Shown here one piece after another: positions 46,227-64,000 of a stretch of DNA of 64,000 nucleotides. The notes under the pieces are model-generated. The model was given only the letters and a program-made list of their open reading frames with translations, searched no databases and was not told the origin of the DNA. A program made the translations under genes and the position numbers. Source of the stretch: Candidatus Woesearchaeota archaeon (GTDB lineage Archaea; Nanobdellota; Nanobdellia; Woesearchaeales; GW2011-AR9); NCBI GenBank assembly GCA_018696595.1, contig JABHQW010000008.1, positions 32,001 through 96,000 on the forward strand, given 5' to 3'. Each line of letters begins with the position of its first letter. The stretch's first letter is position 1.

Positions 46227-47876
46227 TTATTTTTTATCTCTTTTTGCTATTATGGCATTAATTCTTTTATAATCTTCAAATGTATGAATTTCAGTCCAAC
46301 CTTTATTGACTTCTAAACAATCAACTTTGTGTCCTTGCTCAATTAACTTTTGAATAGCATAAGTAAAATCTTTGTTTTTCATTTCTTCATAATTCTCAGA
46401 ATAGATTTGTTTTAGTAACTCGGTACCTTGTCCCGAAAACATTGCCATGCCAATAAATTCAAAATTTGCTTCATCCGGATCTAAATGTGAACCAATTTTA
46501 ACAATTTCATTATGGTCATCAAAAGTTAATGATCTTTCACCTAGATAGGGGTCTCTTTTACCAACAACAAGATCTAACTTTTTATTATACCGATTAGCAT
46601 TTAATTTATATGAAGAATCAATCACTAAAGTAATATCTCCTTCTTTCTTAATTAATCTTTCAACAATGTCCTTATCAAAAAGAAGGTCAGAATAAAGCAT
46701 TAGAATTTTTCCGTTCATTTTATCTTTAGCAGTCATGATTGAATGTAACGCTTTGGTGTTTTCATATTCAGAGTTATGATACTTATTAATTGCAGGAAGA
46801 TTAATTTTTTCCCCACAATAGCCAGTAACTACACTAATATCATTAATCTTAAGAGAATTAAGAATCTCAATATTTCTTTGAATAATTGGTTTGCCATTAA
46901 TATCAAGTAAACAAAGAGGGGTATCTTTTAGGTATACATCATTGAGCTTAGGATCTATTGGCTTACCAGCGGCAGGAATAATAACTTTAATCTCTTCAAA
47001 GTCTCCTTTAACATATTTCGTTTCATGGTCCTTCATTTCAAAAGTACCTTGAAGTTCAAACAATTCTTTTACTGGAATCAATTTTTCTGAGATTGTATGA
47101 ATCCCTCCTTGTTCTTTTATTTCCTTAAGTGTTTCTTTAATAGAAGTTACTGCAGATCTAATCACATGATTAGCATAAATAACCATCTTAACTTTAGGGT
47201 GATTTTTTATTTTATCCTCAGTCAAAGTGTAATAATTTGTAGGAACAATGACGATTGGAATATCTTCTTTCCACTCTTCAATAAACCTAATAACTTCTGC
47301 AGGATCACTTTGTTTAGAATGAATCATAATTGCATCTGCCCCTGCCTCAACATAAGCTTTGGCTCTTTTTTTTGCTTCTTCATGACCCCATCCAGCAATG
47401 AGGGCTTCAACACGAGCAATAACCATGAAATCATCATCTCGTTGAGCATTTTTAGCAGCCATAATCTTTCCAGAGAACTCAGCAATAGATGCTAATTCTT
47501 GTTTCCCTCCAACTAAAAGGCTATTCTGTTTTGGAAACTTTTTATCTTCCATAATTACTCCTGCAATTCCGGCTGCCTCAAATTTTTGAACCATCCGAAT
47601 TACGTTAATAGAATTACCATAACCTTGATCAACATCAACAACAACGGGAATCGTAACTGCATCATTCATAGAAACTGCCGCATCTAAATAGTCTGTCATA
47701 GTGAGAATATTAGCATCTGGAACAGCATGTGACGCCGAAACTTCTAAAGAAGAAGCCCAAACTCCTTCAAAGCCTGCTTTCTCGATTAATTTCGCAGTCA
47801 AACCATTATGAGCCCCAACTAAACGAAAGAACCCAGGAAGATTAAATAATTCACGCAATTTTTTTGATTTTTCCAT
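46227..47876 (-). CDS. aepX: Phosphoenolpyruvate mutase fused to C-terminal NTP-transferase-like domain
   Basis: GAHNGLTA, WASSL, VDVDQGYG, PepM signature EDKKFPKQNS, ARVEALIAG; C-term VIIPAAG..PLCLLDINGKPII. Confidence 0.96.
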   Translation of the reverse strand: MEKSKKLRELFNLPGFFRLVGAHNGLTAKLIEKAGFEGVWASSLEVSASHAVPDANILTMTDYLDAAVSMNDAVTIPVVVDVDQGYGNSINVIRMVQKFEAAGIAGVIMEDKKFPKQNSLLVGGKQELASIAEFSGKIMAAKNAQRDDDFMVIARVEALIAGWGHEEAKKRAKAYVEAGADAIMIHSKQSDPAEVIRFIEEWKEDIPIVIVPTNYYTLTEDKIKNHPKVKMVIYANHVIRSAVTSIKETLKEIKEQGGIHTISEKLIPVKELFELQGTFEMKDHETKYVKGDFEEIKVIIPAAGKPIDPKLNDVYLKDTPLCLLDINGKPIIQRNIEILNSLKINDISVVTGYCGEKINLPAINKYHNSEYENTKALHSIMTAKDKMNGKILMLYSDLLFDKDIVERLIKKEGDITLVIDSSYKLNANRYNKKLDLVVGKRDPYLGERSLTFDDHNEIVKIGSHLDPDEANFEFIGMAMFSGQGTELLKQIYSENYEEMKNKDFTYAIQKLIEQGHKVDCLEVNKGWTEIHTFEDYKRINAIIAKRDKK

Positions 47877-47909
47877 AATTTCACCTAATGCAAAAGCAGA
47901 ATTGAAAAC

Positions 47910-47926
47910 TTATAAAACTTATGAAT
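47910..47926 (-). promoter_or_regulatory. BRE/TATA of pepM operon
   Basis: Minus strand ATTCATAAGTTTTATAA; 16/17 identical to 53091-53107; GGTGA SD at 47881-47886. Confidence 0.55.
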
Positions 47927-47928
47927 TT

Positions 47929-47945
47929 GTCTTATTAATTAAGAC
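47929..47945. promoter_or_regulatory. 17-bp palindrome, candidate operator
   Basis: GTCTTA-TTAAT-TAAGAC just upstream of the pepM BRE. Confidence 0.4.
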
Positions 47946-48009
47946 TATTAATTAAAATATTAAATGAAAGTCTTCCCAAAAAATAACAAAAATAACGTTA
48001 ATCTTTACT

Positions 48010-48025
48010 CCATAGAATATATAAA
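48010..48025 (+). promoter_or_regulatory. BRE/TATA of GT4-ppd unit
   Basis: CCATAGAATATATAAA, identical at 53198-53213; 22 nt before the ATG. Confidence 0.6.
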
Positions 48026-48047
48026 GGGACTACCTTAAATCAAATTT

Positions 48048-49103
48048 ATGAAAATCTTATTAGTCCATGAATTATTTATGCCCGACCAAGTTGGAGGGGG
48101 CGAAGTTTTAGTTTATGAATTAGCAAAAGGACTAATTAAGAAAGGTCACGAAGTCAAAGTCTTTACAACTGGAAAGCCAGAAATTAAACAGTATGAGAAT
48201 ATCCCAACAGTTAGAATAAATATCAACAGATATTTGTTTAATTTTTCATTTCTAAAAATAAAGAAATTAGCTAAAGATTATGATATCATTCAATCTTTTA
48301 GTTATAATGCTGCCTTCCCATCATATTTAGCTAGCAAACTTGGAAAAAAGCCAGTTATTTGTACCATCTTGGGAGTATACGGAAAAACTTGGAAGAAATT
48401 AAGAAAATTAAGTTTCTTTTGGAGAATGATGGAAAAAGTACAACTTAACAGAAAATTTAATGCCACTGTTTTCTTAAGCCCTCTCTCTCGTGAAATTGGT
48501 CATGAGATTGGGATGAAGATGGCCCCAAATTTTATAATTCCTTCAGGAGTTAATTTATCTAACACCCATCCCAATCTAAAAAAGGAGAAGTTTGTTCTTT
48601 TTGTAGGGAGGCTTTCAAAACAAAAAGGATTAGATTTACTTATTGATACAGCAGTTTTACTTCCAGAAATTAAGTTTGTTTTAGTAGGTGAAGGACCAGA
48701 AAAACAAAAGTTGCAACAAAAAGCAACGAAAAATGTTAGTTTTCTTCCTCCACAATACGGAGACAAATTGTTCAATCTATTTGGAAAAGCTCAGATTTTT
48801 TGTTTACCTTCTTACGCAGAAGGATTTCCAGTTGTTATAGTAGAAGCCATGGCCTCCGGTTGTGCCATTGTTTCAACTTTAGATTATCCTTATCATGGCC
48901 AGTACGTACCAAATAGGTGTCCGAACGAACTAGCCACTACAATTGAGAAATTGTATAATAATGAAAAATTATTACAGAAATATTCCAATAGCAATATTAA
49001 AGATTCTCGAGATTATACTTGGAATAACTTCGTTAATAAAACGGAACAAGTTTATCATTGGGTTCTAAATCAGAAAACATCAGAAAAAGAGATTGAAGAT
49101 TAA
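48048..49103 (+). CDS. GT4 glycosyltransferase
   Basis: VGGGE, FVGRLSKQKG, LPSYAEGFPVVIVEAMASG. Confidence 0.9.
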   Translation: MKILLVHELFMPDQVGGGEVLVYELAKGLIKKGHEVKVFTTGKPEIKQYENIPTVRININRYLFNFSFLKIKKLAKDYDIIQSFSYNAAFPSYLASKLGKKPVICTILGVYGKTWKKLRKLSFFWRMMEKVQLNRKFNATVFLSPLSREIGHEIGMKMAPNFIIPSGVNLSNTHPNLKKEKFVLFVGRLSKQKGLDLLIDTAVLLPEIKFVLVGEGPEKQKLQQKATKNVSFLPPQYGDKLFNLFGKAQIFCLPSYAEGFPVVIVEAMASGCAIVSTLDYPYHGQYVPNRCPNELATTIEKLYNNEKLLQKYSNSNIKDSRDYTWNNFVNKTEQVYHWVLNQKTSEKEIED

Positions 49104-49186
49104 TGCACAAGAATTATAAATGAATTATAACCATTAACTACCTATTAATTTAAAAAAATTAACGAGAATGGATTAATTAATTGAAA

Positions 49187-50308
49187 ATGATAAACCCAGC
49201 ACAATTTTACGAACTTTTACAAACTAAAGAACTAACTATGTTTACCGGGGTGCCTGATTCTACCTTAAAACAATTATGTGCTTACATCACAGATCATGTG
49301 CCTCCAGAAAGAAATATTATAACTGCAAATGAAGGTAATGCAATTGGTTTAGCAAGTGGGTATTACTTAAGCACAAACAACCCTGCCATCGTTTACATGC
49401 AAAATTCGGGATTGGGAAATTGTGTTAATCCCTTAACTTCTTTAACTGATGAAGATGTTTATTCTATTCCAATGTTATTGATTATCGGCTGGAGAGGCGA
49501 ACCAGGAAAAAAAGATGAACCGCAACATGTAAGAATGGGACAAATAACTCTGGAGATGTTGGATGTTCTAAAAATACCTTATTCTATTATTCCTGATACA
49601 ATTGAAGAAACAGAAATAGAGGTTAGTAAAGCTGTTGTTCATATGAACAATCATAAAACACCTTATGCTCTTGTTGTAAGAAAAGGAACTTTCACGGAAC
49701 ATAAATTACAAAATACAAAAACAACAAATTATCCCCTTAATCGCGAACAAGCAATAAGGACCCTTGTTCCGTTATTAGAAGAAGATGCTATTATAGTTTC
49801 AACCACTGGAAAAACATCAAGAGAATTATTTGAATTTAGAGAAGAACTTCAACAAGGACACGAAAGAGATTTCTTAACTGTTGGTTCAATGGGCCATTCA
49901 TCTTCAATTACTTTAGGAGTCGCCTTACAAAAACCAAAAAAGAAAGTATACTGTTTTGATGGTGATGGTGCGCTAATAATGCACATGGGTGCCTTATCAA
50001 CAATTGGCCAGTTACAACCAAAGAATCTGTGTCATATTGTATTGAATAATTTTGCACATGATTCGGTCGGGGGACAACCAACTGCTGCAGACAATATTGA
50101 TATTCCGCAAGTTGCTCAAGCTAACGGATATAAGAAAGTGTTCTCGGCTCAAAGCGAAGAAGAGATTAGAGCTAAAATAAAAGAAATCCAACAACTAGAA
50201 GGGCCAACATTATTAGAAATTAAAGTAAACAAAGGGGCAAGAAAAGAATTAGGAAGACCCACTACAACACCAAAAGAGAACAAATCTGAATTGATGAAGT
50301 ATTTATAA
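49187..50308 (+). CDS. aepY: Phosphonopyruvate decarboxylase
   Basis: FTGVPDS, ANEGNAIGLASG, YMQNSGLGN, GWRGEPG..DEPQH, TVGSMGH, DGDGALIMHMG, NNFAHDSVGGQPT. Confidence 0.96.
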   Translation: MINPAQFYELLQTKELTMFTGVPDSTLKQLCAYITDHVPPERNIITANEGNAIGLASGYYLSTNNPAIVYMQNSGLGNCVNPLTSLTDEDVYSIPMLLIIGWRGEPGKKDEPQHVRMGQITLEMLDVLKIPYSIIPDTIEETEIEVSKAVVHMNNHKTPYALVVRKGTFTEHKLQNTKTTNYPLNREQAIRTLVPLLEEDAIIVSTTGKTSRELFEFREELQQGHERDFLTVGSMGHSSSITLGVALQKPKKKVYCFDGDGALIMHMGALSTIGQLQPKNLCHIVLNNFAHDSVGGQPTAADNIDIPQVAQANGYKKVFSAQSEEEIRAKIKEIQQLEGPTLLEIKVNKGARKELGRPTTTPKENKSELMKYL

Positions 50309-50390: not shown

Positions 50391-51431
50391 TTAATTATCT
50401 TCCCAATCCTTTTTTGGAATTCTCCAGTCTTTTCCATAAACAAATTCGAGATGTTTTTCAGGATTAAAAGGGGCATGATACTCTTTCCCATAAAAATCTA
50501 TTTTTCCTAATTGACTATAATGTTCTCTTAAAAACTTCCACTCAATGATTCTACAATCTTTTAGTGAAACTTTTTCCCATAATAATTGAATTAATTTCCC
50601 TTTATAAGGAATAAAAGTAAATATAAATATCACTACATTAAAAAAACCTTTTAAAAACCAAGAAGGGATTCTTGAATCTTGTAGCTCTCCACCATGCCTT
50701 CTTATTAAAGTAATAAATGTATTTATTATCATCCTTCGCTTTTTTATGCCATCTCTAGCTGCCAACAACAACCAACCCAATAACGCAGTAATTTTTGTTT
50801 TTTTCTTTAAACTTTTTGTTTGAAAAAAAACTAAATAGTCCTTTTTTTTCCTAAGAATATGAATATTAATATGTAATGAACCTTTCTTTCTAAATGTAAT
50901 CATTCCACGATCAGCAAACCAACATACTTCAAACCCCTGATCTGATAGCTTATTAAGAGCATCTAGTAATGTATTTATATTAATTTCTTCCCTCACCATA
51001 CTAGTATCAATATCACAATCCCAAGATAATATTTTCTTATCCCTAACTGCTCCAAGAAGGGTACCACAATCTAATCTCCAAATTAAGTTATGTTCTTCAA
51101 ATACCTCTTTTATTTCTTCTAACGCTTTCACTGTTCCTTTTTCATGTGGGTTTTTTTCTTTTGAAGAAATTGTGGGCGTGTTCTTTCTAGAAATAACTTT
51201 TTCATTTAACTCCATTTGTATTTTTTGATTAATACTTTTATCTTTTATATTTCCAATTTTAGTTAAGTGTTTCCTAAAAGGACCGAGATTTGTCCTAAAT
51301 ATTCTACAATTTAACCAAAGGTATCCTTTCTCTTTTGTAATAGTATACACATTTTCTCTGAAAGGGTCTAATGGTGGTGTAAACCGAGTTGTTTTTACTA
51401 TATCGCCAACTTTAAAAATTGTTTTTGTCAT
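50391..51431 (-). CDS. LicD-family phosphotransferase with N-terminal extension
   Basis: LDCGTLLGAVRDKKILSWDCDID; C-term HLEFVYGKDWRIP; start moved to ATG 51431. Confidence 0.85.
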   Translation of the reverse strand: MTKTIFKVGDIVKTTRFTPPLDPFRENVYTITKEKGYLWLNCRIFRTNLGPFRKHLTKIGNIKDKSINQKIQMELNEKVISRKNTPTISSKEKNPHEKGTVKALEEIKEVFEEHNLIWRLDCGTLLGAVRDKKILSWDCDIDTSMVREEININTLLDALNKLSDQGFEVCWFADRGMITFRKKGSLHINIHILRKKKDYLVFFQTKSLKKKTKITALLGWLLLAARDGIKKRRMIINTFITLIRRHGGELQDSRIPSWFLKGFFNVVIFIFTFIPYKGKLIQLLWEKVSLKDCRIIEWKFLREHYSQLGKIDFYGKEYHAPFNPEKHLEFVYGKDWRIPKKDWEDN

Positions 51432-51502
51432 TTTCTTTATTATTCTCCACATAGTTAATCAATAAAATCAAAGATTATAATTACTAAGTAATTATAATTA
51501 AA

Positions 51503-53032
51503 TTATGTTTGTTTTATCCCCACAAAACCTATTCTTTCACCATACATCGCTTTTGCCCGAATTGGATCTCTTTTAAGTAACAAATGATTAAGATCAAAGT
51601 TTTGTTTTTCTACCCAACATTCAAACTCTCCTGCACTTTTAAAACCGTCAACAGTTATATGGGAGTTTCTGAAAGTACCACTTTTTTTTACTTCTCCATC
51701 CCACCATAAATTTTCTTTTGTAACTTGTCGATAAAGCTCTGTTCCAGGAAGGGGATTCACAATGGCAACAGAATAACTATCTGCCCCACAACTAGCAGCA
51801 AACTTAATTGTTTCTTCCCTTTCTTCTCTTGTTTCGCCTGGAAAACCAACCATCCAAAAAGTATGAGTATACAACCCGGCATCAATAGCAGTTCTAATTG
51901 TTTGAGGAATAAGTTCTAAATCCAACCTTTTATTGGCCTGATCTAAAGTTTTTTGCACACCACTTTCACATGCTAAAGTGACTTGATAGCAACCCGAATC
52001 TGCCATTTTTTCAAATAATTCCTGATGCTTACCCTGGTGATAATCTACTCTGATTCCATTCGGCGGGCACCAAGGAATATTCAAGGGTTTCATTAGATCA
52101 CATAATTCATTTAATTTTGAAAGGTCAGATGTTAGAGTATCGTCTTCAAACTGAACTTCTTGAATACCATGATTTTCAATAGCGTCTTTTATTTCTGCAA
52201 CAATTTCTTGAGGGCTTCTCCACCTAACTTTTCTTCCCCAAGTAACGGGAGTAGTACAATAAGTACAACGTTCCGGACATCCCCTAGAAGCCATAACATT
52301 CAATACCCTTTTTCTTTCAGTATCTGCATTATGAAATAAACCAACATTAAAGTACCCTTCCATATTCATAAGATGCCTAGCGGGAGAAGGTAAATCTTGG
52401 AGATTAAGTGTTTCTCCAGATAAAGGATTAATTACTATTTTACCTGCTTCGGATGAAGAATTTTCTCTATGAACTAAACCGGGAATCAAACTATAATCAC
52501 CACCAGTTAATAAACAATCAATTAAATGTGCAAATCTCAGTTCACTTTCTCCAACCATTGCAAAATCAATATTTTGATTATCCATGAAAGCCAATTCTTT
52601 TTCTAGATTTGATTCTTGGTTTCTAGGATCATTGGCATAAAGATAATCTGACACACTATTAGTGATATAGTTTCCACCTACAATAACTGGGAGATCTCTT
52701 TTAACCTCTTTTGTAATCCGAGCTAAGGCATGAGAGCCTTGAACAAGATTAGAAAAGAGTACAGAAATCCCAACAATGTCTGGATTAATTTCTGAGATAT
52801 ATTTAGCAATATCAGTATCTGATTCTCCCACAATAACTATTCCCTTCTCCCCGGAGGATTCAGAATGGTGATAGCCTTCTAATGCAGTATCACGAACATA
52901 AACGTCGTGGCCTTCTTTTTCAAGAACTGCCGCCAAATAACCCAAACCCAAAGGAGGTTGTATTCGGTTAACCCCTCCTTCAATGCCCCTGATATTTGGA
53001 GAGAATAACAAAATCCTACTTTTATTTACCAT
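51503..53032 (-). CDS. Cobalamin-binding radical SAM enzyme (class B methyltransferase-like)
   Basis: QPPLGLGYLAAVL, VGIS, GESE, ASRGCPERCTYC (CxxxCxxC), FEDD, GFPGET, PLPGTELY. Confidence 0.9.
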   Translation of the reverse strand: MVNKSRILLFSPNIRGIEGGVNRIQPPLGLGYLAAVLEKEGHDVYVRDTALEGYHHSESSGEKGIVIVGESDTDIAKYISEINPDIVGISVLFSNLVQGSHALARITKEVKRDLPVIVGGNYITNSVSDYLYANDPRNQESNLEKELAFMDNQNIDFAMVGESELRFAHLIDCLLTGGDYSLIPGLVHRENSSSEAGKIVINPLSGETLNLQDLPSPARHLMNMEGYFNVGLFHNADTERKRVLNVMASRGCPERCTYCTTPVTWGRKVRWRSPQEIVAEIKDAIENHGIQEVQFEDDTLTSDLSKLNELCDLMKPLNIPWCPPNGIRVDYHQGKHQELFEKMADSGCYQVTLACESGVQKTLDQANKRLDLELIPQTIRTAIDAGLYTHTFWMVGFPGETREEREETIKFAASCGADSYSVAIVNPLPGTELYRQVTKENLWWDGEVKKSGTFRNSHITVDGFKSAGEFECWVEKQNFDLNHLLLKRDPIRAKAMYGERIGFVGIKQT

Positions 53033-58155: not shown

Positions 58156-58180
58156 AGAAGGCGGTTGTTCTGACTATAGA

Positions 58181-59170
58181 ATGGTAAACAATTTGTTGAG
58201 TCATTATAAAGTCTCCCCAAAATTAGAAGTGAAATTAACAGCAAGTTTTCCTTTATCTCGGAGTACAGGAATTCAACAAGCTTATAATTCTCAAGAACCA
58301 GATTGGGACTTATTATTTACGCATTGGGGTAAAGAGATTATATATATTAATCCTAATATCCCCCAATTACAGTGGAGAGAGATATGCTTAGCAACCCATT
58401 GGAATCAATTTGAAGAAGCAGTTAAAAAAAATGATAAATTAGTACTAGATGGGAGAAAAATCGATGGTTTTTCAATTCAAGCTCAACGTAAAGGGGCTTT
58501 AAAAGATTTAAGTTTTTTATCTACTGCAAATTATTGTTTTACTCTTACCGATGATGACCAACATATTTTAATGGGAGTTAGGGGAGGAAGTGATAATGTA
58601 GGACAAGCAGTAACAATGCCATTGGGGGTTGTTTCTTATCCTTCAGAACCTGACCCTAATAATTTAGATCCAATTACGGCTTCAGTTTACTCCGAAGCAA
58701 ATGAAGAAGGGGGCATTTTACCAAATGAATATTCTTCATTAAATTGTATTGGAACCTTGCGACAAGAGCAATGTTCTACACCAGTAAATAATCTTATTTG
58801 GATTGGAAGATTAAAGATTACAGGTGAAGAAATTATAGAGAGACACAAAGTAGCCATTGAATTATATAATAAATTTGGAAATGATTCTGAGAACATATTA
58901 AAGGCACGAATGGAGTTGAGAAAAAGATTTTTATTTAATCCAAGATTTCCAAAAGATGCTTGGGAAAATTCAAGATTAAATTTATTTTCTAATGATCCCG
59001 AGAAAATGGTTGCAGATCTCAGTTATTTAATTGACCAAGGAAAAGAAATTAAACATGGATTATATGGTGCTTTAGCCTTATATATTTTAAACCAACATGG
59101 AGATAAATATTATAGTCAATTAATGAATATACCACAATTTAAAGAAAAGATTCATGATCAAAAATTATAG
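58181..59170 (+). CDS. Hypothetical protein with degenerate Nudix-like segment
   Basis: ILMGVRGG..MPLG..SEANEEGGI resembles a Nudix box. Confidence 0.55.
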   Translation: MVNNLLSHYKVSPKLEVKLTASFPLSRSTGIQQAYNSQEPDWDLLFTHWGKEIIYINPNIPQLQWREICLATHWNQFEEAVKKNDKLVLDGRKIDGFSIQAQRKGALKDLSFLSTANYCFTLTDDDQHILMGVRGGSDNVGQAVTMPLGVVSYPSEPDPNNLDPITASVYSEANEEGGILPNEYSSLNCIGTLRQEQCSTPVNNLIWIGRLKITGEEIIERHKVAIELYNKFGNDSENILKARMELRKRFLFNPRFPKDAWENSRLNLFSNDPEKMVADLSYLIDQGKEIKHGLYGALALYILNQHGDKYYSQLMNIPQFKEKIHDQKL

Positions 59171-59257: not shown

Positions 59258-59962
59258 ATGAAAGCATTAATTACTGCGGCCGGAATGGGTACGAGACTGG
59301 GTAATATTACTAAAGACACAAACAAGTGTATCTTAAATGTCGGAAACAAACCATTACTTCTCCATTCAGTCGAGATTCTCAAGAATGTAGGAATTGATGA
59401 CATATATGTAATTATTGGCCATCACGGAGAGAAAATTAAACAACTTCTTGGAGATAAAGTTAATTATATCTATAATCCTGATTATGCCACTACTAGTATT
59501 CTAGGTTCTATTGTTCTTGCTAAAGAACATTTATTCCAGTCAGAATTTGTTTTTCTAACCGGAGATTCTTTGCTCCATCCCGAACTCATCAAGGGCTTAT
59601 TAGAACCAAGTCAAGATGTTCTTGTTTCTATTGAGCTTAAAAAATGTAATGAAGAAGATATGAAAGTTGTTTTAGAGAACCATAATATTAAAGAAATAAG
59701 TAAAACAATATCTTTGGATCAGGCCCAGGGAGAATATACTAGCCTTACTAGATTCCCAAAAGAGTCTTCCACTGTTTTTTTTAATGAAGTTGAAAAAGCA
59801 ATAAACAATCAGAATTGTAAAACTTATGTTGCTGACATCCTTTTAAATTTACAAAATTTAGGGTTTAATCTTAAACCAATATATACCAATAAACCAAGAA
59901 TTGAAATTGATTTCTTAGAAGACTTAGAAAAAGCCCAAGCATTGTACAAACAATATTTTTGA
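59258..59962 (+). CDS. LicC/PntC-like (phosphocholine/phosphonate) cytidylyltransferase family NTP transferase
   Basis: ALITAAGMGTRL, NKCILNVGNKPL, YNPDYATT, EEDMKV, IEIDFLEDL; own TATA 23 nt upstream. Confidence 0.85.
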   Translation: MKALITAAGMGTRLGNITKDTNKCILNVGNKPLLLHSVEILKNVGIDDIYVIIGHHGEKIKQLLGDKVNYIYNPDYATTSILGSIVLAKEHLFQSEFVFLTGDSLLHPELIKGLLEPSQDVLVSIELKKCNEEDMKVVLENHNIKEISKTISLDQAQGEYTSLTRFPKESSTVFFNEVEKAINNQNCKTYVADILLNLQNLGFNLKPIYTNKPRIEIDFLEDLEKAQALYKQYF

Positions 59963-60032
59963 TTTCTAGTATGAAAATTATAAGAATATAGAAAAGATAA
60001 AAAGAAAATTAAAAAAGAAATTAATAAAAAAA

Positions 60033-60761
60033 TTAAAATTTCTTTTCTTCAACACCTAACCGATCACAAATTTGACTAATACTAATTACTTTCAAATCAT
60101 ATTGATCTGCTAAGCCCCTAAGTTGTGCAGGGGAAGCCATTTTGTAAGGGTCATCAGGATGTAATATTTCCATATCAACTACCACTGGAGGATTGATTCC
60201 AGCTAACTTCATCAATTCAATTCCCGATTCTGTATGACCTTGTCTAGCATAAAGTCCCTGAGGATTACCTGCAATTGGAACAAGATGTCCTGGTCTAACC
60301 AAGTCTTCTGGGGTTGATGCTCTTTCTTCTAATTCTCCGGAAACTAATCGTGAATAATCAAAAGGCCTACCGTTCTCTCCAGTTTGATAAGGAACAAATC
60401 GACCGCCAAGAATATTCGCAGTTTGTGCTCTTTCTGCAGCAGAACAACCAGAATGACCATACAATGTATCGGTAGTTAAACGAAAATTAGTTTGACTACT
60501 TTCTTGGTTATCACTTGCATCTACTTGACCAGGCAACCCAAACTGAGTTGCATAATCTTCAGGCATAAAAATAGCAATAAATGCCCCTTTAGCATTATCT
60601 AAAACAAATTTCATTGTTGTGGGTGTTATTTTAGCAGCAGAAACAAGAAAATCTCCTTCTCCTTCCCTACCTGGATTATCCATTAAAATAATTGGTTTGC
60701 CTTGTTGGATATCAATTAAAGCATCATCCAAACTATCTAATTTTACGCCATAATTATTCAT
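60033..60761 (-). CDS. ribB: Stand-alone, divergent 3,4-dihydroxy-2-butanone 4-phosphate synthase homolog
   Basis: MDNPGREGEGDF, DLVRPGHLVPI, RQGHTESGIELMKLAG; start moved to ATG 60761 with GAGGT SD. Confidence 0.8.
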   Translation of the reverse strand: MNNYGVKLDSLDDALIDIQQGKPIILMDNPGREGEGDFLVSAAKITPTTMKFVLDNAKGAFIAIFMPEDYATQFGLPGQVDASDNQESSQTNFRLTTDTLYGHSGCSAAERAQTANILGGRFVPYQTGENGRPFDYSRLVSGELEERASTPEDLVRPGHLVPIAGNPQGLYARQGHTESGIELMKLAGINPPVVVDMEILHPDDPYKMASPAQLRGLADQYDLKVISISQICDRLGVEEKKF

Positions 60762-60929
60762 TTTATTTACCTCTTCACATTTTTTAAAAATGTTAAATTT
60801 ATAAAGTAATCTCAAATTCTGATATATAAGTTTTATGCACTACAAATCAGACTACGAAAACCTAAATGATTTAAAACCCACATTCCAAAATAGAGATTAA
60901 TTTAACAGAAAGACAAGAGATCCAAAAAA

Positions 60930-61691
60930 ATGAAAACCAAATATCCATTTAAAACAATAACAAAAACTGAAGAGCAACTTCATTCTTGGACTTATGTATT
61001 TCTACTTAAGTATCCAACAATCTTATTAACCTGGCTATTTGCAAATTTTACTAACTTCTCTCCAAACTTAGTTTCTTTCCTAGGGCTGATTCCTTCTTTT
61101 ATTAGTGCTTATTTTTATGTTAATGGGAACTTACTATTTGGTGCTCTTTTTTATCTCTTGGCTTGGCTTCTTGATGGAGTTGATGGAAGATTAGCAAGAG
61201 TCAAAAGCCTAGGGTCAAAGTACGGGGCATTTTATGACAATTATGTTGGCCAAATTGGTTTTATTATAATGATCATGGGATTTTTTTATGGTATAGCTAG
61301 AATAAAACAAAATTCTTTATGGTTGTTGTTGGGCATTCTAGTTTACTTTCTGGTTACTTTCCGCAGCTTGATTGCTTTAAAAGTTAAAACCTTGATGGGA
61401 AATGAATATCGTGTCAACTTAGATGAAGTAAATGTTGAAGAAGCAAGTATTAAAGAAACAAAAGGATTATGGGGATTAGCTGTAAGATTACAAAATAAAC
61501 TGAACCAAAAAGGTTTAGTTGAACCATTTAACCTAATTGATATGATTGTATTGATTTTTATTATTGGCCCAATTGCGGAATTAATTTTATCTGGTTCTCT
61601 AATATATGTGATAATATTTGCATTGATTATGATTATAATAAAAGAAATCATCTGGTTTCTCTATTATAGAAAGATTTTAAAAGATAGGTGA
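60930..61691 (+). CDS. CDP-alcohol phosphotransferase family membrane protein
   Basis: FSPNLVSFL, DGVDGRLAR-x8-G-x3-D-x3-G. Confidence 0.85.
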   Translation: MKTKYPFKTITKTEEQLHSWTYVFLLKYPTILLTWLFANFTNFSPNLVSFLGLIPSFISAYFYVNGNLLFGALFYLLAWLLDGVDGRLARVKSLGSKYGAFYDNYVGQIGFIIMIMGFFYGIARIKQNSLWLLLGILVYFLVTFRSLIALKVKTLMGNEYRVNLDEVNVEEASIKETKGLWGLAVRLQNKLNQKGLVEPFNLIDMIVLIFIIGPIAELILSGSLIYVIIFALIMIIIKEIIWFLYYRKILKDR

Positions 61692-61699
61692 AATTAAAA

Positions 61700-62836
61700 A
61701 TGAATATAATTCTTCTTACTGATGGATTCATGCGGAATAAAAAAGAATCAATATATCTTACATTAACTAGTTTAAGTAAAGAATTAATTAATCAAGGACA
61801 TCAAGTAGTAATTATTGCTAATGGAAATAATGATCTTCCCCGGATTAATATTGAAGAGAGAGTAACAATCGTTAGGCCGCCAAAAATCTTCAGTTTTTGT
61901 AGAATAATGAGGATAATTATTATTGGTCCTTTTATTAGAGTCTTACAAAAAAAACAGAAAAGAAAATACCAAATCATTAATAATTTTAGTTCTGCTCCAA
62001 TCTTAGTATTGAGAGCAGTATTTGCAAAATTGTTTTTGCCAAATATTAAAATTATTCAAAGCATAAAGTCTTATTCAAAAATGAATCTTGGAAACCATTT
62101 TTTTCATTTACTTAATTTTGCAAATTTAGTAACTATACCAACAAAAGTATTTGCAAAAAAGCTGGTTAGAAAAGGAGTAAAAGAAGAGAAAATCGAGGTC
62201 ATGAGATCCACCATTAATACCAATAAATTTTATCCAAAGAATGGAGACAAACTTAAGCAGGAATATGGCTATAACAATAAAAATGTGATTTTTTATTATG
62301 GGGCATTATGGAAAGAAAAAGGAGTGAAATATCTTGTTGAAGCCATCCCCGAAATTAAAAAGGTAGAACCACAAACAATGTTCATTTTTGCACCACGAGA
62401 AAGAAAAGAATTTTTATATCAACATAAGAAGTTACTAAATAAAATTAAAAAAATACCTGATACAACTATTTTAATTAACAAAATTAAAATTGAAGATTAT
62501 GTCAATATGGCCCAGATTTTAGTACTCCCTTATGCCAGCATTATTGGAACAGAAGGTAATCCTTCCTGCTTACTAGAAGCAATGGCTTGTAAAACTGCCG
62601 TTGTTACAAGTAATCTCCCTGAGTTGAAGGAAATTGTGCAACATGAACAAGATGTTCTTTTAGCAGAACCCGAAAATCCCGCCTCCATTGCTAAAAATGT
62701 AATCCGATTATTAAATGATAAACAGTTACAAGAAAGATTAACTGAAAATGCATATAAGAAATCAAAACAATTTGATGTAAGAATCATTGCCCAACAATAT
62801 TTAAAGTTATATCAAAATGTTTTAAACAAGAAGTAA
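61700..62836 (+). CDS. GT4 glycosyltransferase
   Basis: YYGALWKEKG, EGNPSCLLEAMAC, NLPELKEIV; AGGTGA SD before ATG 61700. Confidence 0.88.
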   Translation: MNIILLTDGFMRNKKESIYLTLTSLSKELINQGHQVVIIANGNNDLPRINIEERVTIVRPPKIFSFCRIMRIIIIGPFIRVLQKKQKRKYQIINNFSSAPILVLRAVFAKLFLPNIKIIQSIKSYSKMNLGNHFFHLLNFANLVTIPTKVFAKKLVRKGVKEEKIEVMRSTINTNKFYPKNGDKLKQEYGYNNKNVIFYYGALWKEKGVKYLVEAIPEIKKVEPQTMFIFAPRERKEFLYQHKKLLNKIKKIPDTTILINKIKIEDYVNMAQILVLPYASIIGTEGNPSCLLEAMACKTAVVTSNLPELKEIVQHEQDVLLAEPENPASIAKNVIRLLNDKQLQERLTENAYKKSKQFDVRIIAQQYLKLYQNVLNKK

Positions 62837-62870
62837 TAATGATTAAATTATGAATAAACTCTGATTTGTT

Positions 62871-64000
62871 TTATTTATTCAAGAAAGAAAGAGTTTTTGT
62901 GACTATTGCATTTAGATTTAACTCTTTATTATCAGTCTTCACATTATTTGCTTCAAAATTATTAGATAACTGTTCAAATAAACCCATCTGTCTACTTAAT
63001 TCTTCAGGAGACTGGTCCCTTTTTCGGTTATAAAGAGTATTGGGATCATTGTAAAGATAAAAAGTTAAAGAAGGTTTAGGGAAAAAACTAAGAAAAAATC
63101 TTTTCAGAAAAAAAGGAACATGTTTCATCAAAAGAATATCGCTGCAGTATCTGTCTGTGACCACAATAAAGCGTTTTCTCTTTGGTAAAACAATAAACAA
63201 ATATCGAATTAATAAATCAAGAGTATAAATTGGAGAAGACAATGAATAAATAATTTTCTTTAAGTTCTTGCCAACTTTCTTTTTCTTTTCAACCCCTTTG
63301 TAAATATTACCAATCTTTTTAATGGGGATTATATTCTTCTTTCCCCGTCCAACATAAATTAAATTGACAGGATAACCATTATTCTTTAATATGCTTACCA
63401 ATCCTTCTGTCATTGTTGATTTTCCAGATCCATCTGGCCCAATTAAAGAGATCAATGGTTTGCTAGGCATCAATAGATTAAGTAAAGGAACCTTTCTTAA
63501 AGGACAATATTTTCTACTAAAAAACCACCGAGCAGATAATTTAGTAAAAGTCCAAGCCCTTTTAAAATCTTTAAAAGCATAATAACTCGCTAAGAATTTC
63601 ATTCTTCTTTCAATCTTCTCAAATGTTCCTTCTTGTACATTCTTTAATAAAAATAAAGCAATCTTTTTATTAAATATTTGAGCCAGGTTAGATTTAATAT
63701 AACTAAAATTAAGATCTTCCTGAGATAAACTCACCAGTTCCTCTTTATACTTATGTTTAAAAAATCGTTTTCCCAAAATAGAATGACATAAATAATGAAG
63801 ATAAGAATCATTAACAGAAAGTATTGGAAAGAAATACTTGTTTTCTATTCCTGATAAAATCTGATTCATCTTTAGATACACAATGTCGTTCCAGTAGATT
63901 CCTCCTTTTTGTAAGTCAAAAGAAAAAGTTTTTTTATTCTCTGGAAAATATTTCCAAAAACCTTGGTGTTTTAAAGAAAAGTTCTTACTAGATTTATTAA
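62871..64000 (-). CDS. Thymidylate-kinase-like P-loop protein with N-terminal extra domain; 5' end beyond the window
   Basis: LIGPDGSGKST, VTDRY; frame stays open from 63881 to the window edge (..FDLQKGGIYWNDIVYL..), so the track start is artificial. Confidence 0.75.
   Translation of the reverse strand, partial: NKSSKNFSLKHQGFWKYFPENKKTFSFDLQKGGIYWNDIVYLKMNQILSGIENKYFFPILSVNDSYLHYLCHSILGKRFFKHKYKEELVSLSQEDLNFSYIKSNLAQIFNKKIALFLLKNVQEGTFEKIERRMKFLASYYAFKDFKRAWTFTKLSARWFFSRKYCPLRKVPLLNLLMPSKPLISLIGPDGSGKSTMTEGLVSILKNNGYPVNLIYVGRGKKNIIPIKKIGNIYKGVEKKKKVGKNLKKIIYSLSSPIYTLDLLIRYLFIVLPKRKRFIVVTDRYCSDILLMKHVPFFLKRFFLSFFPKPSLTFYLYNDPNTLYNRKRDQSPEELSRQMGLFEQLSNNFEANNVKTDNKELNLNAIVTKTLSFLNK

What the first reader, a model, noticed from the sequence alone, without database searches (positions are those of the whole stretch)
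46227..64000. Complete phosphonate-activation-and-transfer pathway in a putative DPANN archaeon, abutting the AglB locus
Seen: PepM with the EDKxxxxxNS signature, Ppd, both a PnAA reductase-like Fe-ADH and an AEP transaminase, four nucleotidyltransferase domains, LicD, two CDP-alcohol phosphotransferases and three GT4s. pepM is co-oriented 34 nt upstream of the epimerase-RfbB gene, and the block is contiguous with aglB. Established: PEP to PnPy to PnAA gives 2-HEP (Fe-ADH) or 2-AEP (PhnW/AepZ), CTP activation precedes transfer to glycans or lipids, and the well-studied archaeal case is the thaumarchaeal HEP/methylphosphonate pathway. Inference: this organism decorates its N-glycans, S-layer or lipids with two phosphonate head groups. 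That would be a costly C-P surface chemistry in a lineage usually considered biosynthetically reduced.
Basis: partly seen in the sequence, partly recalled or inferred. Interest (0 to 1): 0.92.

Follow-up and report, generated by a model that had tools for sequence, protein, structure and literature searches.

The report
Hybrid phosphonate surface-decoration cluster, marine DPANN
A tiny marine DPANN archaeon carries, inside its protein-glycosylation gene island, a complete gene set for making and nucleotide-activating two carbon-phosphorus compounds, probably to decorate its cell surface; the enzymes are known from bacteria, but this merged arrangement, with one unique four-enzyme fusion protein, is new.

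Summary
One 1164-aa ORF combines Fe-ADH, a Fom1-type HEP cytidylyltransferase, PntC and an AEP transaminase.

- a B12-binding radical-SAM enzyme;
- a Nudix-fold hydrolase with no Pfam hit;
- a SAM methyltransferase.

The genome is archaeal, 1.19 Mb and 97% complete. The stretch is held by seawater metagenomes of at least 15 studies.

PepM is not unique to this genome. It occurs in 23 of 401 high-quality genomes sampled from the phylum, in two module types:
- an AEP type: PepM-NT, Ppd and PntC-AEPT;
- a HEP type: Fom1-like CyT-PepM, Ppd and Fe-ADH.

The window is a merger of the two. I found no other protein among 5.8 billion with all four domains of the fusion.

Best reading: a two-branch phosphonyl-tailoring pathway makes CMP-AEP and CMP-HEP, the latter probably methylated as by Fom3, and feeds surface glycoconjugates or lipids. 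Acceptors and products are inferred, not shown.

The scan had already noted this stretch in another reading (e1-5473761). I rate it a new variant of a known kind, of moderate to high interest.

The parts
38638..42015 (+). AglB/STT3 oligosaccharyltransferase with a C-terminal parvulin PPIase; context that anchors the glycan island
   Evidence: Pfam STT3 1e-37 plus Rotamase. The AglB-GT2-DUF2304-GT4 block recurs next to phosphonate modules in relatives L022/L056 and L046.
42062..44198 (+). GT2, DUF2304 and GT4a, a conserved three-gene block downstream of aglB
   Evidence: Pfam. These genes are 56-69% identical to the same block in L022/L056 and L046.
44171..46192 (-). Double-SDR protein (epimerase-like N-half, dTDP-glucose-4,6-dehydratase-like C-half), co-oriented 34 nt downstream of pepM
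   Evidence: Pfam GDP_Man_Dehyd and Epimerase, two stretches. An independent contig bridges this gene and pepM (X9 record 27).
46227..47876 (-). PEP mutase (residues 1-292) fused to a PF12804-type nucleotidyltransferase (residues ~297-546)
   Evidence: TIGR02320 319.8 bits against cut-off 319.55. PDB 5unc PEP mutase, 313 bits. Motif EDKKFPKQNS at residue 110. 73-87% identical to homologues in the same family.
48048..49103 (+). GT4 glycosyltransferase between pepM and ppd
   Evidence: Pfam Glycos_transf_1 and Glyco_transf_4. A GT4 about 30% identical flanks the AEP-type module in L004, L005 and L057.
49181..50308 (+). Phosphonopyruvate decarboxylase (Ppd)
   Evidence: TIGR03297 507 bits against cut-off 312.5. 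78-90% identical to L057 and L005.
50391..51452 (-). LicD-family phosphotransferase; residues 1-105 have no family match
   Evidence: PF04991 39.6 bits against cut-off 22.6, N-terminal motif only. NF045866 cholinephosphotransferase Mf1, 61 bits. The motif LDCGTLLGAVR..WDCDID aligns with the LicD part of an Fe-ADH/LicD fusion, P0153. It is the only LicD hit in the genome.
51503..53032 (-). B12-binding radical-SAM enzyme, a candidate Fom3-like methyltransferase of a CMP-phosphonate
   Evidence: Pfam B12-binding plus Radical_SAM, with CPERCTYC at residue 252. The nearest curated family is NF038361, a phosphonate-cluster P-methyltransferase, at 259 bits, below its cut-off of 575. Homologues of 43-56% identity lie beside pepM, Fe-ADH or PF01467 genes.
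53238..54392 (+). Fusion protein, domain 1: Fe-dependent alcohol dehydrogenase (PnAA to HEP, FomC-like role)
   Evidence: Pfam Fe-ADH 1.5e-42 plus ADH_Fe_C. 50-54% identical to the Fe-ADH of HEP-type DPANN modules. TIGR03405 176.7 bits, below its cut-off of 423.7.
54420..54818 (+). Fusion protein, domain 2: PF01467 cytidylyltransferase of the Fom1 HEP-cytidylyltransferase type
   Evidence: PDB 5x3d (Fom1 CyTase domain) 151.6 bits, against 63 bits for the next enzyme, ethanolamine-phosphate cytidylyltransferase. 47-57% identical to the N-domains of DPANN CyT-PepM fusions.
54849..56705 (+). Fusion protein, domains 3-4: PntC cytidylyltransferase plus AEP transaminase, the Tde1415 architecture
   Evidence: PDB 6pd1, E 6e-141 over residues 538-1156. 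TIGR03301 430 bits against cut-off 360.8. 57-59% and 81-82% identical to the two-domain proteins of L005 and L057.
56757..57503 (+). Class I SAM-dependent methyltransferase, substrate unknown
   Evidence: Pfam Methyltransf_25, _31 and _11. PDB gives only weak generic matches, including phosphoethanolamine N-methyltransferase at E 3.6e-6.
57505..58155 (+). CDP-alcohol-phosphotransferase-family membrane protein a; the fourth signature Asp is replaced by Gly
   Evidence: PF01066 42.6 bits. AF2299 (4o6m), E 4.6e-17, and that alignment shows DGVVG opposite DGVLD. 36% identical to the gene beside the rSAM in L022/L056.
58181..59170 (+). Nudix-fold protein of a rare family, a candidate CMP-phosphonate hydrolase (role analogous to FomD)
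   Evidence: No Pfam or NCBIfam hit. 58 representatives among 1.8 billion proteins. AF2 model pLDDT 95.7. Best Foldseek match is human NUDT22, E 5e-9. R134 and E176 are invariant and E172 nearly so. A 37%-identical orthologue lies beside CyT-PepM in L022/L056.
59258..59962 (+). LicC/PntC-like free-standing nucleotidyltransferase (234 aa)
   Evidence: Pfam NTP_transf_3 and NTP_transferase. Best PDB match is LicC 1jyk, full length, E 1.7e-15. 39-40% identical to the gene between Fe-ADH and the next gene of the phosphonate cluster in L007 and L008 (that neighbour is a CDP-OH PT in L008 and a B12-rSAM in L007).
60033..60815 (-). RibB (DHBP synthase), probably a passenger gene
   Evidence: PF00926 1e-43. 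Not seen in related phosphonate loci.
60930..61691 (+). CDP-alcohol-phosphotransferase-family membrane protein b; the fourth signature Asp is also replaced by Gly
   Evidence: PF01066 48 bits. Motif DGVDGRLAR..GAFYDNYVG.
61688..62836 (+). GT4 glycosyltransferase c, overlapping CDP-OH PT b by 4 nt
   Evidence: Pfam Glycos_transf_1 4e-28.
62871..64000 (-). dTMP-kinase-like / NTP_transf_5 protein that runs off the window; 434 aa in full (L002:871-2175)
   Evidence: Pfam Thymidylate_kin plus NTP_transf_5. Homologues of 31-35% identity lie beside phosphonate modules in L041 and L047.

Best explanation
This is a biosynthetic, two-branch phosphonyl-tailoring cluster in a marine DPANN archaeon. It arose by merging the two phosphonate module types found in its phylum.

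Shown by sequence:
- PepM and Ppd convert PEP to phosphonoacetaldehyde.
- One 1164-aa protein carries, in order, an Fe-ADH, a Fom1-type cytidylyltransferase, a PntC cytidylyltransferase and an AEP transaminase.

Inferred from characterised homologues:
- The first two domains make 2-hydroxyethylphosphonate (HEP) and CMP-HEP.
- The last two domains make 2-aminoethylphosphonate (AEP) and CMP-AEP.

Inferred from gene context:
- The B12-radical-SAM enzyme methylates a CMP-activated phosphonate. CMP-HEP to CMP-2-hydroxypropylphosphonate, as Fom3 does, is most likely. CMP-AEP is the alternative.
- The Nudix-fold protein hydrolyses a CMP-phosphonate, a role like FomD's.
- The LicC-like transferase can re-activate a head group.
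- LicD and the two atypical CDP-alcohol-phosphotransferase-family proteins then transfer the phosphonyl groups from CMP donors to acceptors. The acceptors are made by the surrounding AglB/GT/flippase island (a surface glycan or glycolipid), or they are scavenged archaeal lipid.

The acceptors and the final structures are not shown.
For: Core enzymes score at equivalog level:
- PepM has the EDKxxxxxNS motif.
- Ppd scores 507 bits.
- The AEP transaminase scores 430 bits.

The fusion's C-half matches the characterised PntC-AEPT Tde1415 (6pd1, E 6e-141; activity in PMC6697681).

The PF01467 domain scores 151.6 bits to the Fom1 HEP cytidylyltransferase, against 63 bits for any other solved enzyme.

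Independent seawater contigs bridge the Fe-ADH|CyT|NT junctions.

The substrate supply fits biosynthesis, not breakdown:
- Enolase, which supplies PEP, is on the same contig.
- No phosphonatase or PhnJ was found in the 97%-complete genome.

The hybrid origin is supported by identities and a tree:
- PepM, Ppd, PntC and AEPT are 57-90% identical to simple three-gene AEP modules in the same family.
- Fe-ADH, CyT, the rSAM, CDP-OH PT a and the Nudix gene are 36-57% identical to the HEP module of G284, also in the same family.
- The PepM tree puts the two module types in separate deep clades (100/100).

The rSAM is linked to phosphonates:
- 5 of 7 homologue contexts contain phosphonate genes, and 4 of those have Fe-ADH and/or PF01467.
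- In the phylum, the hits at 49%, 43%, 37% and 35% identity all lie next to pepM-family genes.
- Related rSAM domains are covalently fused to AEPT-NT (P0124).

The surface-glycan context:
- AglB, three GT4s and a GT2 lie in the window.
- A flippase and a GT-C lie downstream of the window.
- AglB lies within 10 kb of pepM in 4 other phylum genomes.
Against: - No product, acceptor or expression data exist.
- I could not compare the rSAM with Fom3 directly. It scores below the cut-off of its nearest curated family (259 against 575 bits). One close homologue (Nitrohelix, L020) sits with an AEP transaminase rather than Fe-ADH, and one (Omnitrophica, L060) has no phosphonate genes nearby.
- Both CDP-alcohol phosphotransferases lack the fourth signature Asp, taken in that family to be the catalytic base. 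They may work differently or not at all.
- The LicD match covers only the N-terminal motif.
- The Fe-ADH is below the cut-off of the phosphonate-specific Fe-ADH family.
- A B12-dependent step requires cobalamin, which a 1.19-Mb genome presumably must import. I did not examine this.
Confidence: 0.7

Rival explanations
1. The products are phosphonolipid head groups rather than glycan decorations. The CDP-alcohol-phosphotransferase-family proteins would transfer HEP/HPP or AEP from the CMP donors to archaeol-type lipids taken from a host, in a Kennedy-like route. This need not exclude the glycan route.
For: - Two CDP-OH_P_transf genes lie in the cluster.
- NT plus CDP-OH PT pairs recur beside Fe-ADH in L008 and L061, like the IPCT/DIPPS pairing.
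- The genome has CDP-archaeol synthase (CarS) but no detectable GGGP synthase, so it probably remodels imported lipid.
- The Nitrohelix context has LPG_synthase_TM lipid genes next to AEPT and a CDP-OH PT.
Against: - Both enzymes lack the fourth signature Asp.
- LicD, three GT4s, AglB and a flippase point to glycans.
- A housekeeping CarS and CDP-OH PT pair lies elsewhere in the genome.
Confidence: 0.2
2. The cluster makes a free small-molecule phosphonate, for example a fosfomycin-like antibiotic or another secreted metabolite. It would use the Fom1/Fom2/FomC/Fom3/FomD logic of transient cytidylylation, methylation and hydrolysis.
For: The cluster holds a Fom1-type cytidylyltransferase, an Fe-ADH, a B12-rSAM and a Nudix-fold hydrolase that could release the free phosphonate.
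Against: - No HppE/cupin epoxidase or other late tailoring enzyme is among the cluster's ORFs.
- No exporter or resistance kinase was recognised.
- LicD, the CDP-OH PTs, the GT4s and the AglB island all argue for transfer to a polymer or lipid.
Confidence: 0.05
3. The radical-SAM, methyltransferase and Nudix genes are unrelated neighbours that act on sugars or other glycan building blocks. On this reading the head groups are plain HEP and AEP.
For: - B12-rSAM genes are numerous and diverse in these glycan islands. L040 has four and L061 four (three complete ORFs and one cut at the locus end).
- One close homologue has no phosphonate context.
- The window's methyltransferase is not conserved in related clusters.
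Against: - The rSAM and the Nudix gene travel together with CyT-PepM and Fe-ADH in G284/L022.
- The closest phylum homologues all abut pepM.
- rSAM domains are fused to AEPT-NT elsewhere.
- The nearest curated family is a phosphonate-cluster methyltransferase.
Confidence: 0.2
4. The block is bacterial DNA mis-binned or mis-assembled into an archaeal genome, or it serves phosphonate catabolism.
For: - The window's PepM clade nests among bacterial PepMs, which suggests ancient transfer.
- The AEP transaminase is reversible.
Against: - The contig is 428 kb and carries AglB, AMP phosphorylase and enolase.
- GC content is uniform.
- Independent contigs tile the region.
- Same-family archaeal genomes carry 73-90% identical genes.
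- The genome has no PhnX or PhnJ.
- PepM plus Ppd is the biosynthetic pair.
Confidence: 0.02

Closest known systems
Bacterial phosphonyl-tailoring (Pnt) pathway: Ppm-nucleotidyltransferase fusion, Ppd, PntC-AEPT (Treponema denticola Tde1415, PDB 6PD1), LicD-like transferases (Rice et al. 2019, PMC6697681)
   Same: - PepM is fused to a PF12804 nucleotidyltransferase. This is the commonest Ppm fusion, 33% of Ppm enzymes.
- The cluster has Ppd, the PntC-AEPT architecture (E 6e-141), a LicD-family gene and neighbouring glycosyltransferases.
   Different: - The host is a DPANN archaeon, and the cluster sits in an AglB N-glycosylation island.
- PntC-AEPT carries an extra Fe-ADH and a Fom1-type cytidylyltransferase at its N-terminus.
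- The cluster adds a B12-rSAM, a Nudix-fold gene and two CDP-alcohol-phosphotransferase-family genes.
Early fosfomycin pathway of Streptomyces: Fom1 (CyTase-PepM), Fom2 (Ppd), FomC (Fe-ADH), Fom3 (B12-rSAM methylating HEP-CMP), FomD (HPP-CMP hydrolase) (PMC8158854; Cho et al. 2017 as cited in PMC6697681)
   Same: - The cytidylyltransferase domain scores 151.6 bits to the Fom1 CyTase domain.
- An Fe-ADH, a B12-rSAM and a candidate nucleotide-phosphonate hydrolase are all present.
- The relative G284/L022 even has the Fom1 domain order, CyT-PepM.
   Different: - There is no HppE epoxidase.
- The hydrolase candidate has a Nudix fold. From my own knowledge, FomD is a DUF402 protein; I did not test this here.
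- I did not test homology of the rSAM to Fom3.
- The CyTase is fused to Fe-ADH and PntC-AEPT, not to PepM.
- The context is cell-surface assembly, not an antibiotic cluster.
Thaumarchaeal (Nitrosopumilus maritimus) HEP to methylphosphonate pathway with MpnS, esterified to exopolysaccharide (as summarised in PMC8931226)
   Same: It is archaeal and marine, makes HEP from PEP through PepM, Ppd and an alcohol dehydrogenase, and its products are thought to end up on surface polysaccharide.
   Different: - No MpnS-type dioxygenase was recognised in the cluster.
- The phylum is different.
- An AEP branch, CMP activation and a radical-SAM step are present here.
LicC/LicD phosphocholine decoration of teichoic acids and LPS (Streptococcus pneumoniae LicC, PDB 1JYK)
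   Same: The free 234-aa nucleotidyltransferase matches LicC over its full length (E 1.7e-15). A LicD-family transferase with the GTLLGAVR..DxDxD motif is present.
   Different: No choline kinase or choline transporter was recognised in the cluster. The context supplies phosphonates, not phosphocholine.
Phosphonoglycoproteins of Prochlorococcus SB and pepM-bearing marine bacterioplankton (Acker et al. 2022, PMC8931226)
   Same: These are marine producers that lack catabolic genes, and pepM lies next to glycosylation genes.
   Different: That study does not mention DPANN. Here the neighbouring glycosylation enzyme is the archaeal N-oligosaccharyltransferase AglB.

Membership tests
PEP mutase (TIGR02320 / PF13714 with Ppm motif) | EDKxxxxxNS catalytic motif, which separates Ppm from other isocitrate-lyase superfamily members | tested here: met
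   EDKKFPKQNS at residue 110. The criterion is as used in PMC6697681.
PEP mutase (TIGR02320 / PF13714 with Ppm motif) | Score over the curated equivalog cut-off, and better than the phosphonopyruvate hydrolase model relative to its own cut-off | tested here: met
   TIGR02320 scores 319.8 against 319.55, only marginally over. TIGR02321 scores 317.2, below its cut-off of 374.4. The best PDB match is PEP mutase 5unc.
PEP mutase (TIGR02320 / PF13714 with Ppm motif) | Mutase activity (PEP to phosphonopyruvate) | not testable with these tools
   Needs an enzyme assay. The adjacent Ppd is the usual thermodynamic partner.
Phosphonopyruvate decarboxylase (TIGR03297) | Equivalog-level score over the full length | tested here: met
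   507 bits against cut-off 312.5, profile positions 2-360 of 360.
PntC-AEPT bifunctional enzyme (Tde1415 type) | An N-terminal LicC-like nucleotidyltransferase followed by a class-V AEP transaminase, homologous over both domains | tested here: met
   6pd1, E 6e-141, query residues 538-1156 against chain residues 4-613. TIGR03301 scores 430 against 360.8.
PntC-AEPT bifunctional enzyme (Tde1415 type) | Preference for AEP over phosphocholine | not tested
   I did not examine the specificity residues described in PMC6697681.
Fom1-type HEP cytidylyltransferase (PF01467) | Closer to the Fom1 CyTase domain than to other PF01467 enzymes | tested here: met
   5x3d scores 151.6 bits. Ethanolamine-phosphate cytidylyltransferase scores 63 and TagD 43.
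Fom3-type B12-radical-SAM C-methyltransferase | B12-binding domain plus a radical-SAM core with CxxxCxxC | tested here: met
   PF02310 plus PF04055. CPERCTYC at residue 252.
Fom3-type B12-radical-SAM C-methyltransferase | Sequence homology or orthology to Fom3 itself | not tested
   No Fom3 sequence or solved structure was available through the tools. The nearest curated family, NF038361 (a P-methyltransferase), scores 259 bits, below its cut-off of 575.
Fom3-type B12-radical-SAM C-methyltransferase | Genomic association with HEP-forming and HEP-cytidylylating enzymes | tested here: met
   L022, L061 and a JGI contig have Fe-ADH and/or PF01467 beside the homologue. L062 has CyT-PepM plus PF01467. 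L020 has AEPT instead.
LicD phosphotransferase (PF04991) | Pfam score over the gathering threshold, and the conserved DxD-containing N-terminal motif | tested here: met
   39.6 bits against 22.6, but only profile positions 2-49 of 227 are matched. The motif is visible.
CDP-alcohol phosphotransferase (PF01066) | Signature D(x)2DG(x)2AR(x)8G(x)3D(x)3D with all four Asp residues | tested here: not met
   Both proteins end the motif with Gly in place of the fourth Asp. Alignment to AF2299 confirms this for protein a. Pfam scores are over the cut-off.
Nudix hydrolase | Nudix fold | tested here: met
   AF2 model pLDDT 95.7. Foldseek top hits are NUDT22 (E 5e-9) followed by many other Nudix enzymes.
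Nudix hydrolase | Canonical Nudix box GX5EX7REUXEEXGU, or a Pfam NUDIX match | tested here: inconclusive
   This protein has no Pfam hit. 3 of 38 homologues hit NUDIX weakly. The divergent box ..SEANEEGG.. has E176 invariant and E172 nearly so.
DPANN archaeon | Archaeal rRNA, a small and nearly complete genome, and relatives of DPANN lineages | tested here: met
   RF01959 scores 1407 bits. The genome is 1.19 Mb and 97% complete. Genomes in the phylum sample are 0.6-1.7 Mb. Relatives carry Woesearchaeota, Undinarchaeota or Nanoarchaeota labels. I built no formal marker-gene phylogeny.

The most novel reading that the evidence does not exclude
The cluster installs a C-methylated phosphonate on the archaeal cell surface, reusing the fosfomycin logic outside antibiotic synthesis.

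The proposed route: the fused Fe-ADH and Fom1-type domains make CMP-HEP, and the B12-radical-SAM enzyme methylates it to CMP-2-hydroxypropylphosphonate.

This product would then follow one of two paths:
- direct transfer to the acceptor;
- release by the Nudix-fold hydrolase, oxidation by the same Fe-ADH to 2-oxopropylphosphonate, transamination by the fused AEPT to 2-aminopropylphosphonate, re-activation by PntC, and then transfer.

The second path would explain why two apparently competing branch enzymes and two cytidylyltransferases sit in one polypeptide. It would also explain why Fe-ADH/AEPT and AEPT/NT/rSAM fusions exist elsewhere. The head group would be one not known from any surface glycoconjugate.
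Probability: 0.25. Interest if true: 0.8.

Novelty: new variant of a known kind. Interest (0 to 1): 0.6.

Why it matters
[quoted passage not shown] The producers are only partly known (PMC8931226).

This cluster comes from a DPANN archaeon whose DNA is held by seawater metagenomes of at least 15 studies. The phylum survey shows pepM in about 6% of sampled high-quality genomes, mostly as a HEP-type module. I found no paper in the searchable library that links DPANN lineages with PEP mutase.

If the products go onto N-glycans or lipids of an episymbiont's surface, they could affect host attachment, resistance to phosphatases and grazers, and the HEP-ester pool of marine organic matter.

The four-domain fusion and the recurring B12-radical-SAM partners suggest that methylation of CMP-activated phosphonates may be a general, uncharacterised step in surface-phosphonate pathways. 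Until now this step is known only from fosfomycin biosynthesis.

Tried and rejected
- tRNA and Rfam scans of the window and of the downstream 20 kb found nothing.
- A direct comparison of the rSAM with Fom3, PhpK or Sden_1168 sequences was not possible:
  - PDB holds no Fom3, and the best solved match is AprD4.
  - The protein-atlas search returned only generic 'B12-binding radical SAM' clusters.
  - A tblastn against plasmids gave only matches at about 30% identity or less, with generic annotation.
- PDB sequence search for LicD gave no hit.
- The methyltransferase gave only weak generic class-I matches, so I make no N-methylation claim.
- Expression: no RNA holder was listed for the stretch or for pepM alone.
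- Literature searches for pepM/phosphonate with DPANN, and for PEP mutase or phosphonate biosynthesis with Woesearchaeota, Nanoarchaeota or Pacearchaeota, found no paper making the link. The library covers only open-access papers.
- I rejected a catabolic reading: no PhnX or PhnJ was found.
- I rejected chimerism.
- I did not run complex prediction, because no protein-protein binding claim is made.
- I could not explain why the relative G284/L022 shows no Ppd within 10 kb of its CyT-PepM, and I did not follow it up.

Full report
OBSERVATION

- PepM lies at 46227-47876(-). It scores 319.8 bits on TIGR02320 (cut-off 319.55). It carries the Ppm-specific motif EDKKFPKQNS at residue 110. Its C-terminus is fused to a PF12804-type nucleotidyltransferase.
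- It lies 34 nt upstream of a co-oriented double-SDR gene (44171-46192).
- Ppd (49181-50308) scores 507 bits on TIGR03297.
- The cluster also holds a LicD-family gene, two PF01066 genes and three GT4s.
- AglB (38638-42015, fused to a parvulin PPIase) is contiguous.

The Fe-ADH and the AEP transaminase are not separate genes. They are the first and last domains of a single 1164-aa ORF (53238-56732), which also contains a PF01467 and a PF00483/PF12804 nucleotidyltransferase domain.

- a B12-binding radical-SAM gene (51503-53032, divergent from the fusion gene);
- a SAM methyltransferase (56757-57503);
- a 329-aa gene without any family hit (58181-59170);
- ribB (60033-60815).

The fusion gene, the methyltransferase, CDP-OH PT a, the 329-aa gene and the 234-aa nucleotidyltransferase are separated by 24, 1, 25 and 87 nt on one strand.

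The cluster continues past the window's end. Downstream genes include a dTMP-kinase-like protein, a Wzx-type flippase, a PMT_2 GT-C, a UDP-GlcNAc 2-epimerase and further GT2s.

WHOSE DNA IT IS

- The window is part of a 428-kb contig in a 1.19-Mb, 8-contig genome that is 97% complete with 0.4% contamination. GC content is uniform at about 32%.
- The genome has a full-length archaeal SSU rRNA (1407 bits).
- The window also encodes an archaeal-type AMP phosphorylase.
- Genomes sampled from the same phylum are 0.6-1.7 Mb.
- Public records of relatives are labelled Woesearchaeota, Undinarchaeota, Nanoarchaeota or Nanoarchaeia. Three same-family MAGs carry an evidently generic 'Methanosarcinales' label, but they are the same contigs as G260 and G286 of the window's own family.
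- The stretch is held by seawater or marine metagenomes of at least 15 studies.
- Contigs from four runs of other studies tile the region. One 3453-nt contig with no differences spans the rSAM gene, the divergent intergenic region and the Fe-ADH|CyT|NT junctions. Two other contigs bridge those junctions as well.

Chimerism and contamination are therefore excluded for practical purposes.

WHAT THE PARTS ARE

The four-domain fusion:
- Residues 538-1156 match the crystallised PntC-AEPT enzyme Tde1415 of Treponema denticola (6pd1) at E 6e-141. Rice et al. showed that this enzyme makes CMP-AEP (PMC6697681).
- Residues 395-527 match the N-terminal HEP cytidylyltransferase domain of Fom1 (5x3d). Searched alone, this domain scores 151.6 bits to Fom1, against 63 bits for the next solved enzyme, ethanolamine-phosphate cytidylyltransferase.
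- Residues 1-385 are a group-III Fe-ADH.

The free 234-aa nucleotidyltransferase matches LicC best, over its full length.

The 329-aa orphan:
- It belongs to a rare family, with 58 representatives among 1.8 billion proteins.
- It folds with pLDDT 95.7.
- It is a Nudix-fold protein. Its closest structure is human NUDT22, a UDP-hexose hydrolase (Foldseek E 5e-9).
- R134 and E176 are invariant and E172 is nearly so.

The radical-SAM protein has the B12-binding domain and CPERCTYC. Its nearest curated family is the Sden_1168 phosphonate-cluster P-methyltransferase, at 259 bits, below the cut-off of 575.

Both PF01066 proteins have the signature DxxDGxxAR..GxxxD, but the fourth Asp is replaced by Gly. 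Alignment to AF2299 confirms this for protein a. Among 15 homologues from phosphonate loci, that position is G, S, A, N, H, E or D.

COMPARATIVE EVIDENCE

PepM occurs in 23 of 401 sampled high-quality genomes of the phylum, and in 8 of 41 of the same family besides this one.

I fetched 20 kb around 20 of these genes and added loci from two other searches. The comparison shows two module types.
- The commoner 'H' type is a Fom1-like CyT-PepM fusion plus Ppd plus Fe-ADH. It often has a CDP-OH PT and B12-rSAM genes nearby.
- The 'A' type is PepM-NT plus Ppd plus the two-domain PntC-AEPT.

A maximum-likelihood tree separates the PepMs of the two types with 100/100 support. It places the window with same-family A-type genes (99/97), inside a clade that also holds bacterial PepMs.

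The window is a hybrid of the two types.
- Its PepM, NT, Ppd, PntC and AEPT are 57-90% identical to the simple A modules of G286 and L005.
- Its Fe-ADH, CyT, rSAM, CDP-OH PT a and Nudix gene are 36-57% identical to the H module of G284 (= L022/L056), also of the same family. That module itself lies next to AglB-GT2-DUF2304-GT4.
- The CyT domain, normally fused to PepM, is here inserted between Fe-ADH and PntC-AEPT.

A search of 5.8 billion proteins found no other protein covering more than 53% of the fusion. It did find related partial fusions:
- Fe-ADH/AEPT;
- AEPT/NT/B12-rSAM;
- MT/rSAM/AEPT;
- LicD/Fe-ADH;
- Ppd/Fe-ADH (many of these in CPR bacteria).

THE RADICAL-SAM STEP

Homologues of 46-56% identity are common in marine data. 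Of seven genomic contexts I inspected, five contain phosphonate genes:
- L022: CyT-PepM, Fe-ADH, rSAM, CDP-OH PT;
- L061: PepM-NT, rSAM, Ppd, Fe-ADH, a second rSAM, NT, CDP-OH PT, MT;
- a JGI contig: PF01467, Fe-ADH, APS kinase, rSAM;
- L062: CyT-PepM, Ppd, PF01467, APS kinase, with the rSAM further along;
- L020: AEPT, CDP-OH PT, MT, rSAM, MT, Ppd.

Within the phylum sample, the hits at 49%, 43%, 37% and 35% identity all lie beside pepM-family genes. One 39% hit and the weaker hits occur in genomes where the PepM search found no match.

An rSAM domain 31% identical to the window's is covalently fused to AEPT-NT in P0124.

The enzyme is therefore linked to phosphonate pathways. Its substrate is most likely a CMP-activated C2 phosphonate. 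CMP-HEP is favoured by the more frequent Fe-ADH/PF01467 partnership and by the Fom3 precedent (PMC8158854). CMP-AEP is not excluded. I could not compare it with Fom3 directly.

MECHANISM PROPOSED

Shown by sequence: the genes for PEP to PnPy to PnAA are present. So are the domains that, by close homology to characterised enzymes, convert PnAA to AEP and CMP-AEP, and cytidylylate HEP.

Inferred:
- the Fe-ADH reduces PnAA to HEP;
- the rSAM methylates a CMP-phosphonate;
- the Nudix-fold protein hydrolyses a CMP-phosphonate, a role analogous to FomD's;
- the LicC-like enzyme re-activates a head group;
- LicD and the atypical CDP-OH PT homologues transfer phosphonyl groups to surface acceptors.

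Supply and direction fit biosynthesis. Enolase is on the same contig. SAH hydrolase and an MTAP-APRT fusion are in the window. No phosphonatase or C-P lyase was found.

Glycan or lipid as the target remains open.
- For glycans: the island contains AglB, GTs, a flippase and a GT-C. AglB lies within 10 kb of pepM in four other genomes.
- For lipids: the genome has CarS but no detectable GGGP synthase, so remodelling of imported lipid is also possible.

COMPARISON WITH WHAT IS KNOWN

Each enzyme type is known from bacteria: the Pnt pathway, the fosfomycin early steps and LicC/LicD.

Li and Horsman catalogued 12 archaeal ppm neighbourhoods from RefSeq. They listed a Campylobacter ppm-ppd neighbourhood flanked by radical-SAM and adenylylsulfate-kinase genes among neighbourhoods fitting none of their seven branch points (PMC8942020).

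What is new here:
- the lineage;
- the merger of both branches around one PepM/Ppd pair;
- the unique four-domain polypeptide;
- the Fom-like enzyme set in a surface context;
- the Nudix-fold partner;
- the Asp-less CDP-OH PT homologues.

VERDICT

I rate the finding a new variant of a known kind, with interest about 0.6.

An earlier reading in this scan had already noted the same stretch (e1-5473761). Another agent had described the AglB-PPIase fusion (e1-4707682).

Noticed in passing
window 57505-58155 and 60930-61691: Both CDP-alcohol-phosphotransferase homologues replace the fourth signature Asp, the proposed catalytic base, with Gly. In 15 homologues from phosphonate loci of DPANN and other genomes this position is G, S, A, N, H, E or D. 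A further CDP-OH PT on the same contig (C3:~124.5 kb) keeps the Asp.
   Followed up: partly
window 3629-4963: A single 444-aa ORF fuses S-methyl-5'-thioadenosine phosphorylase (residues 1-261) to adenine phosphoribosyltransferase (residues 269-443). It lies near adenosylhomocysteinase (1232-2641). This looks like SAM by-product salvage, which is relevant to a genome with many SAM and radical-SAM enzymes.
   Followed up: no
window 62871-64000 and L002:871-2175: A 434-aa protein combines an NTP_transf_5 domain with a dTMP-kinase-like P-loop domain. Homologues of 31-35% identity lie beside phosphonate modules in two other DPANN genomes (L041, L047), and APS-kinase genes accompany rSAM and PF01467 genes in marine bacterial contexts (L062 and a JGI contig). 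It may recycle nucleotides or phosphorylate phosphonates.
   Followed up: partly
proteins P0124/P0125, P0127, P0130, P0131-P0166, P0138, P0153, P0167: Metagenomes hold a range of phosphonate-enzyme fusions: AEPT-NT-B12rSAM, Fe-ADH-AEPT, MT-rSAM-AEPT (Woesearchaeota), Ppd-Fe-ADH (many, including CPR bacteria such as Falkowbacteria and Parcubacteria), CyT-PepM-AEPT, LicD-Fe-ADH and CyT-PepM-Ppd.
   Followed up: partly
L022 / L056 (G284, same family): This HEP-type cluster (CyT-PepM, Fe-ADH, rSAM, CDP-OH PT, Nudix-fold gene) lies next to AglB but shows no Ppd within 10 kb. I did not examine how PnPy is drawn forward there.
   Followed up: no
L040 (G152) and L061: Several distinct B12-radical-SAM genes (four in L040; three complete and one cut at the locus end in L061) are packed around one pepM, which suggests multiple radical methylations or other radical chemistry on phosphonates or their glycan carriers.
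   Followed up: no
window 26832-27845 and 29643-30620: Two ORFs of about 330 aa each match Lrp/AsnC-family regulator models; in the second the hits lie at residues 3-130 and 169-263, i.e. two modules in tandem. They lie upstream of the glycan island.
   Followed up: no
window 60033-60815: An archaeal-type ribB (DHBP synthase, 260 aa) sits on the opposite strand in the middle of the phosphonate/glycan cluster. It is not seen in related loci and is probably a passenger.
   Followed up: no
G380:C11:32349-34429: Two tandem PEP-mutase-superfamily genes below the PepM cut-off (141 and 167 bits) lie next to a 43%-identical homologue of the window's rSAM, in a genome that also has a true CyT-PepM. This may be a different C-P or isocitrate-lyase-type chemistry.
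   Followed up: no
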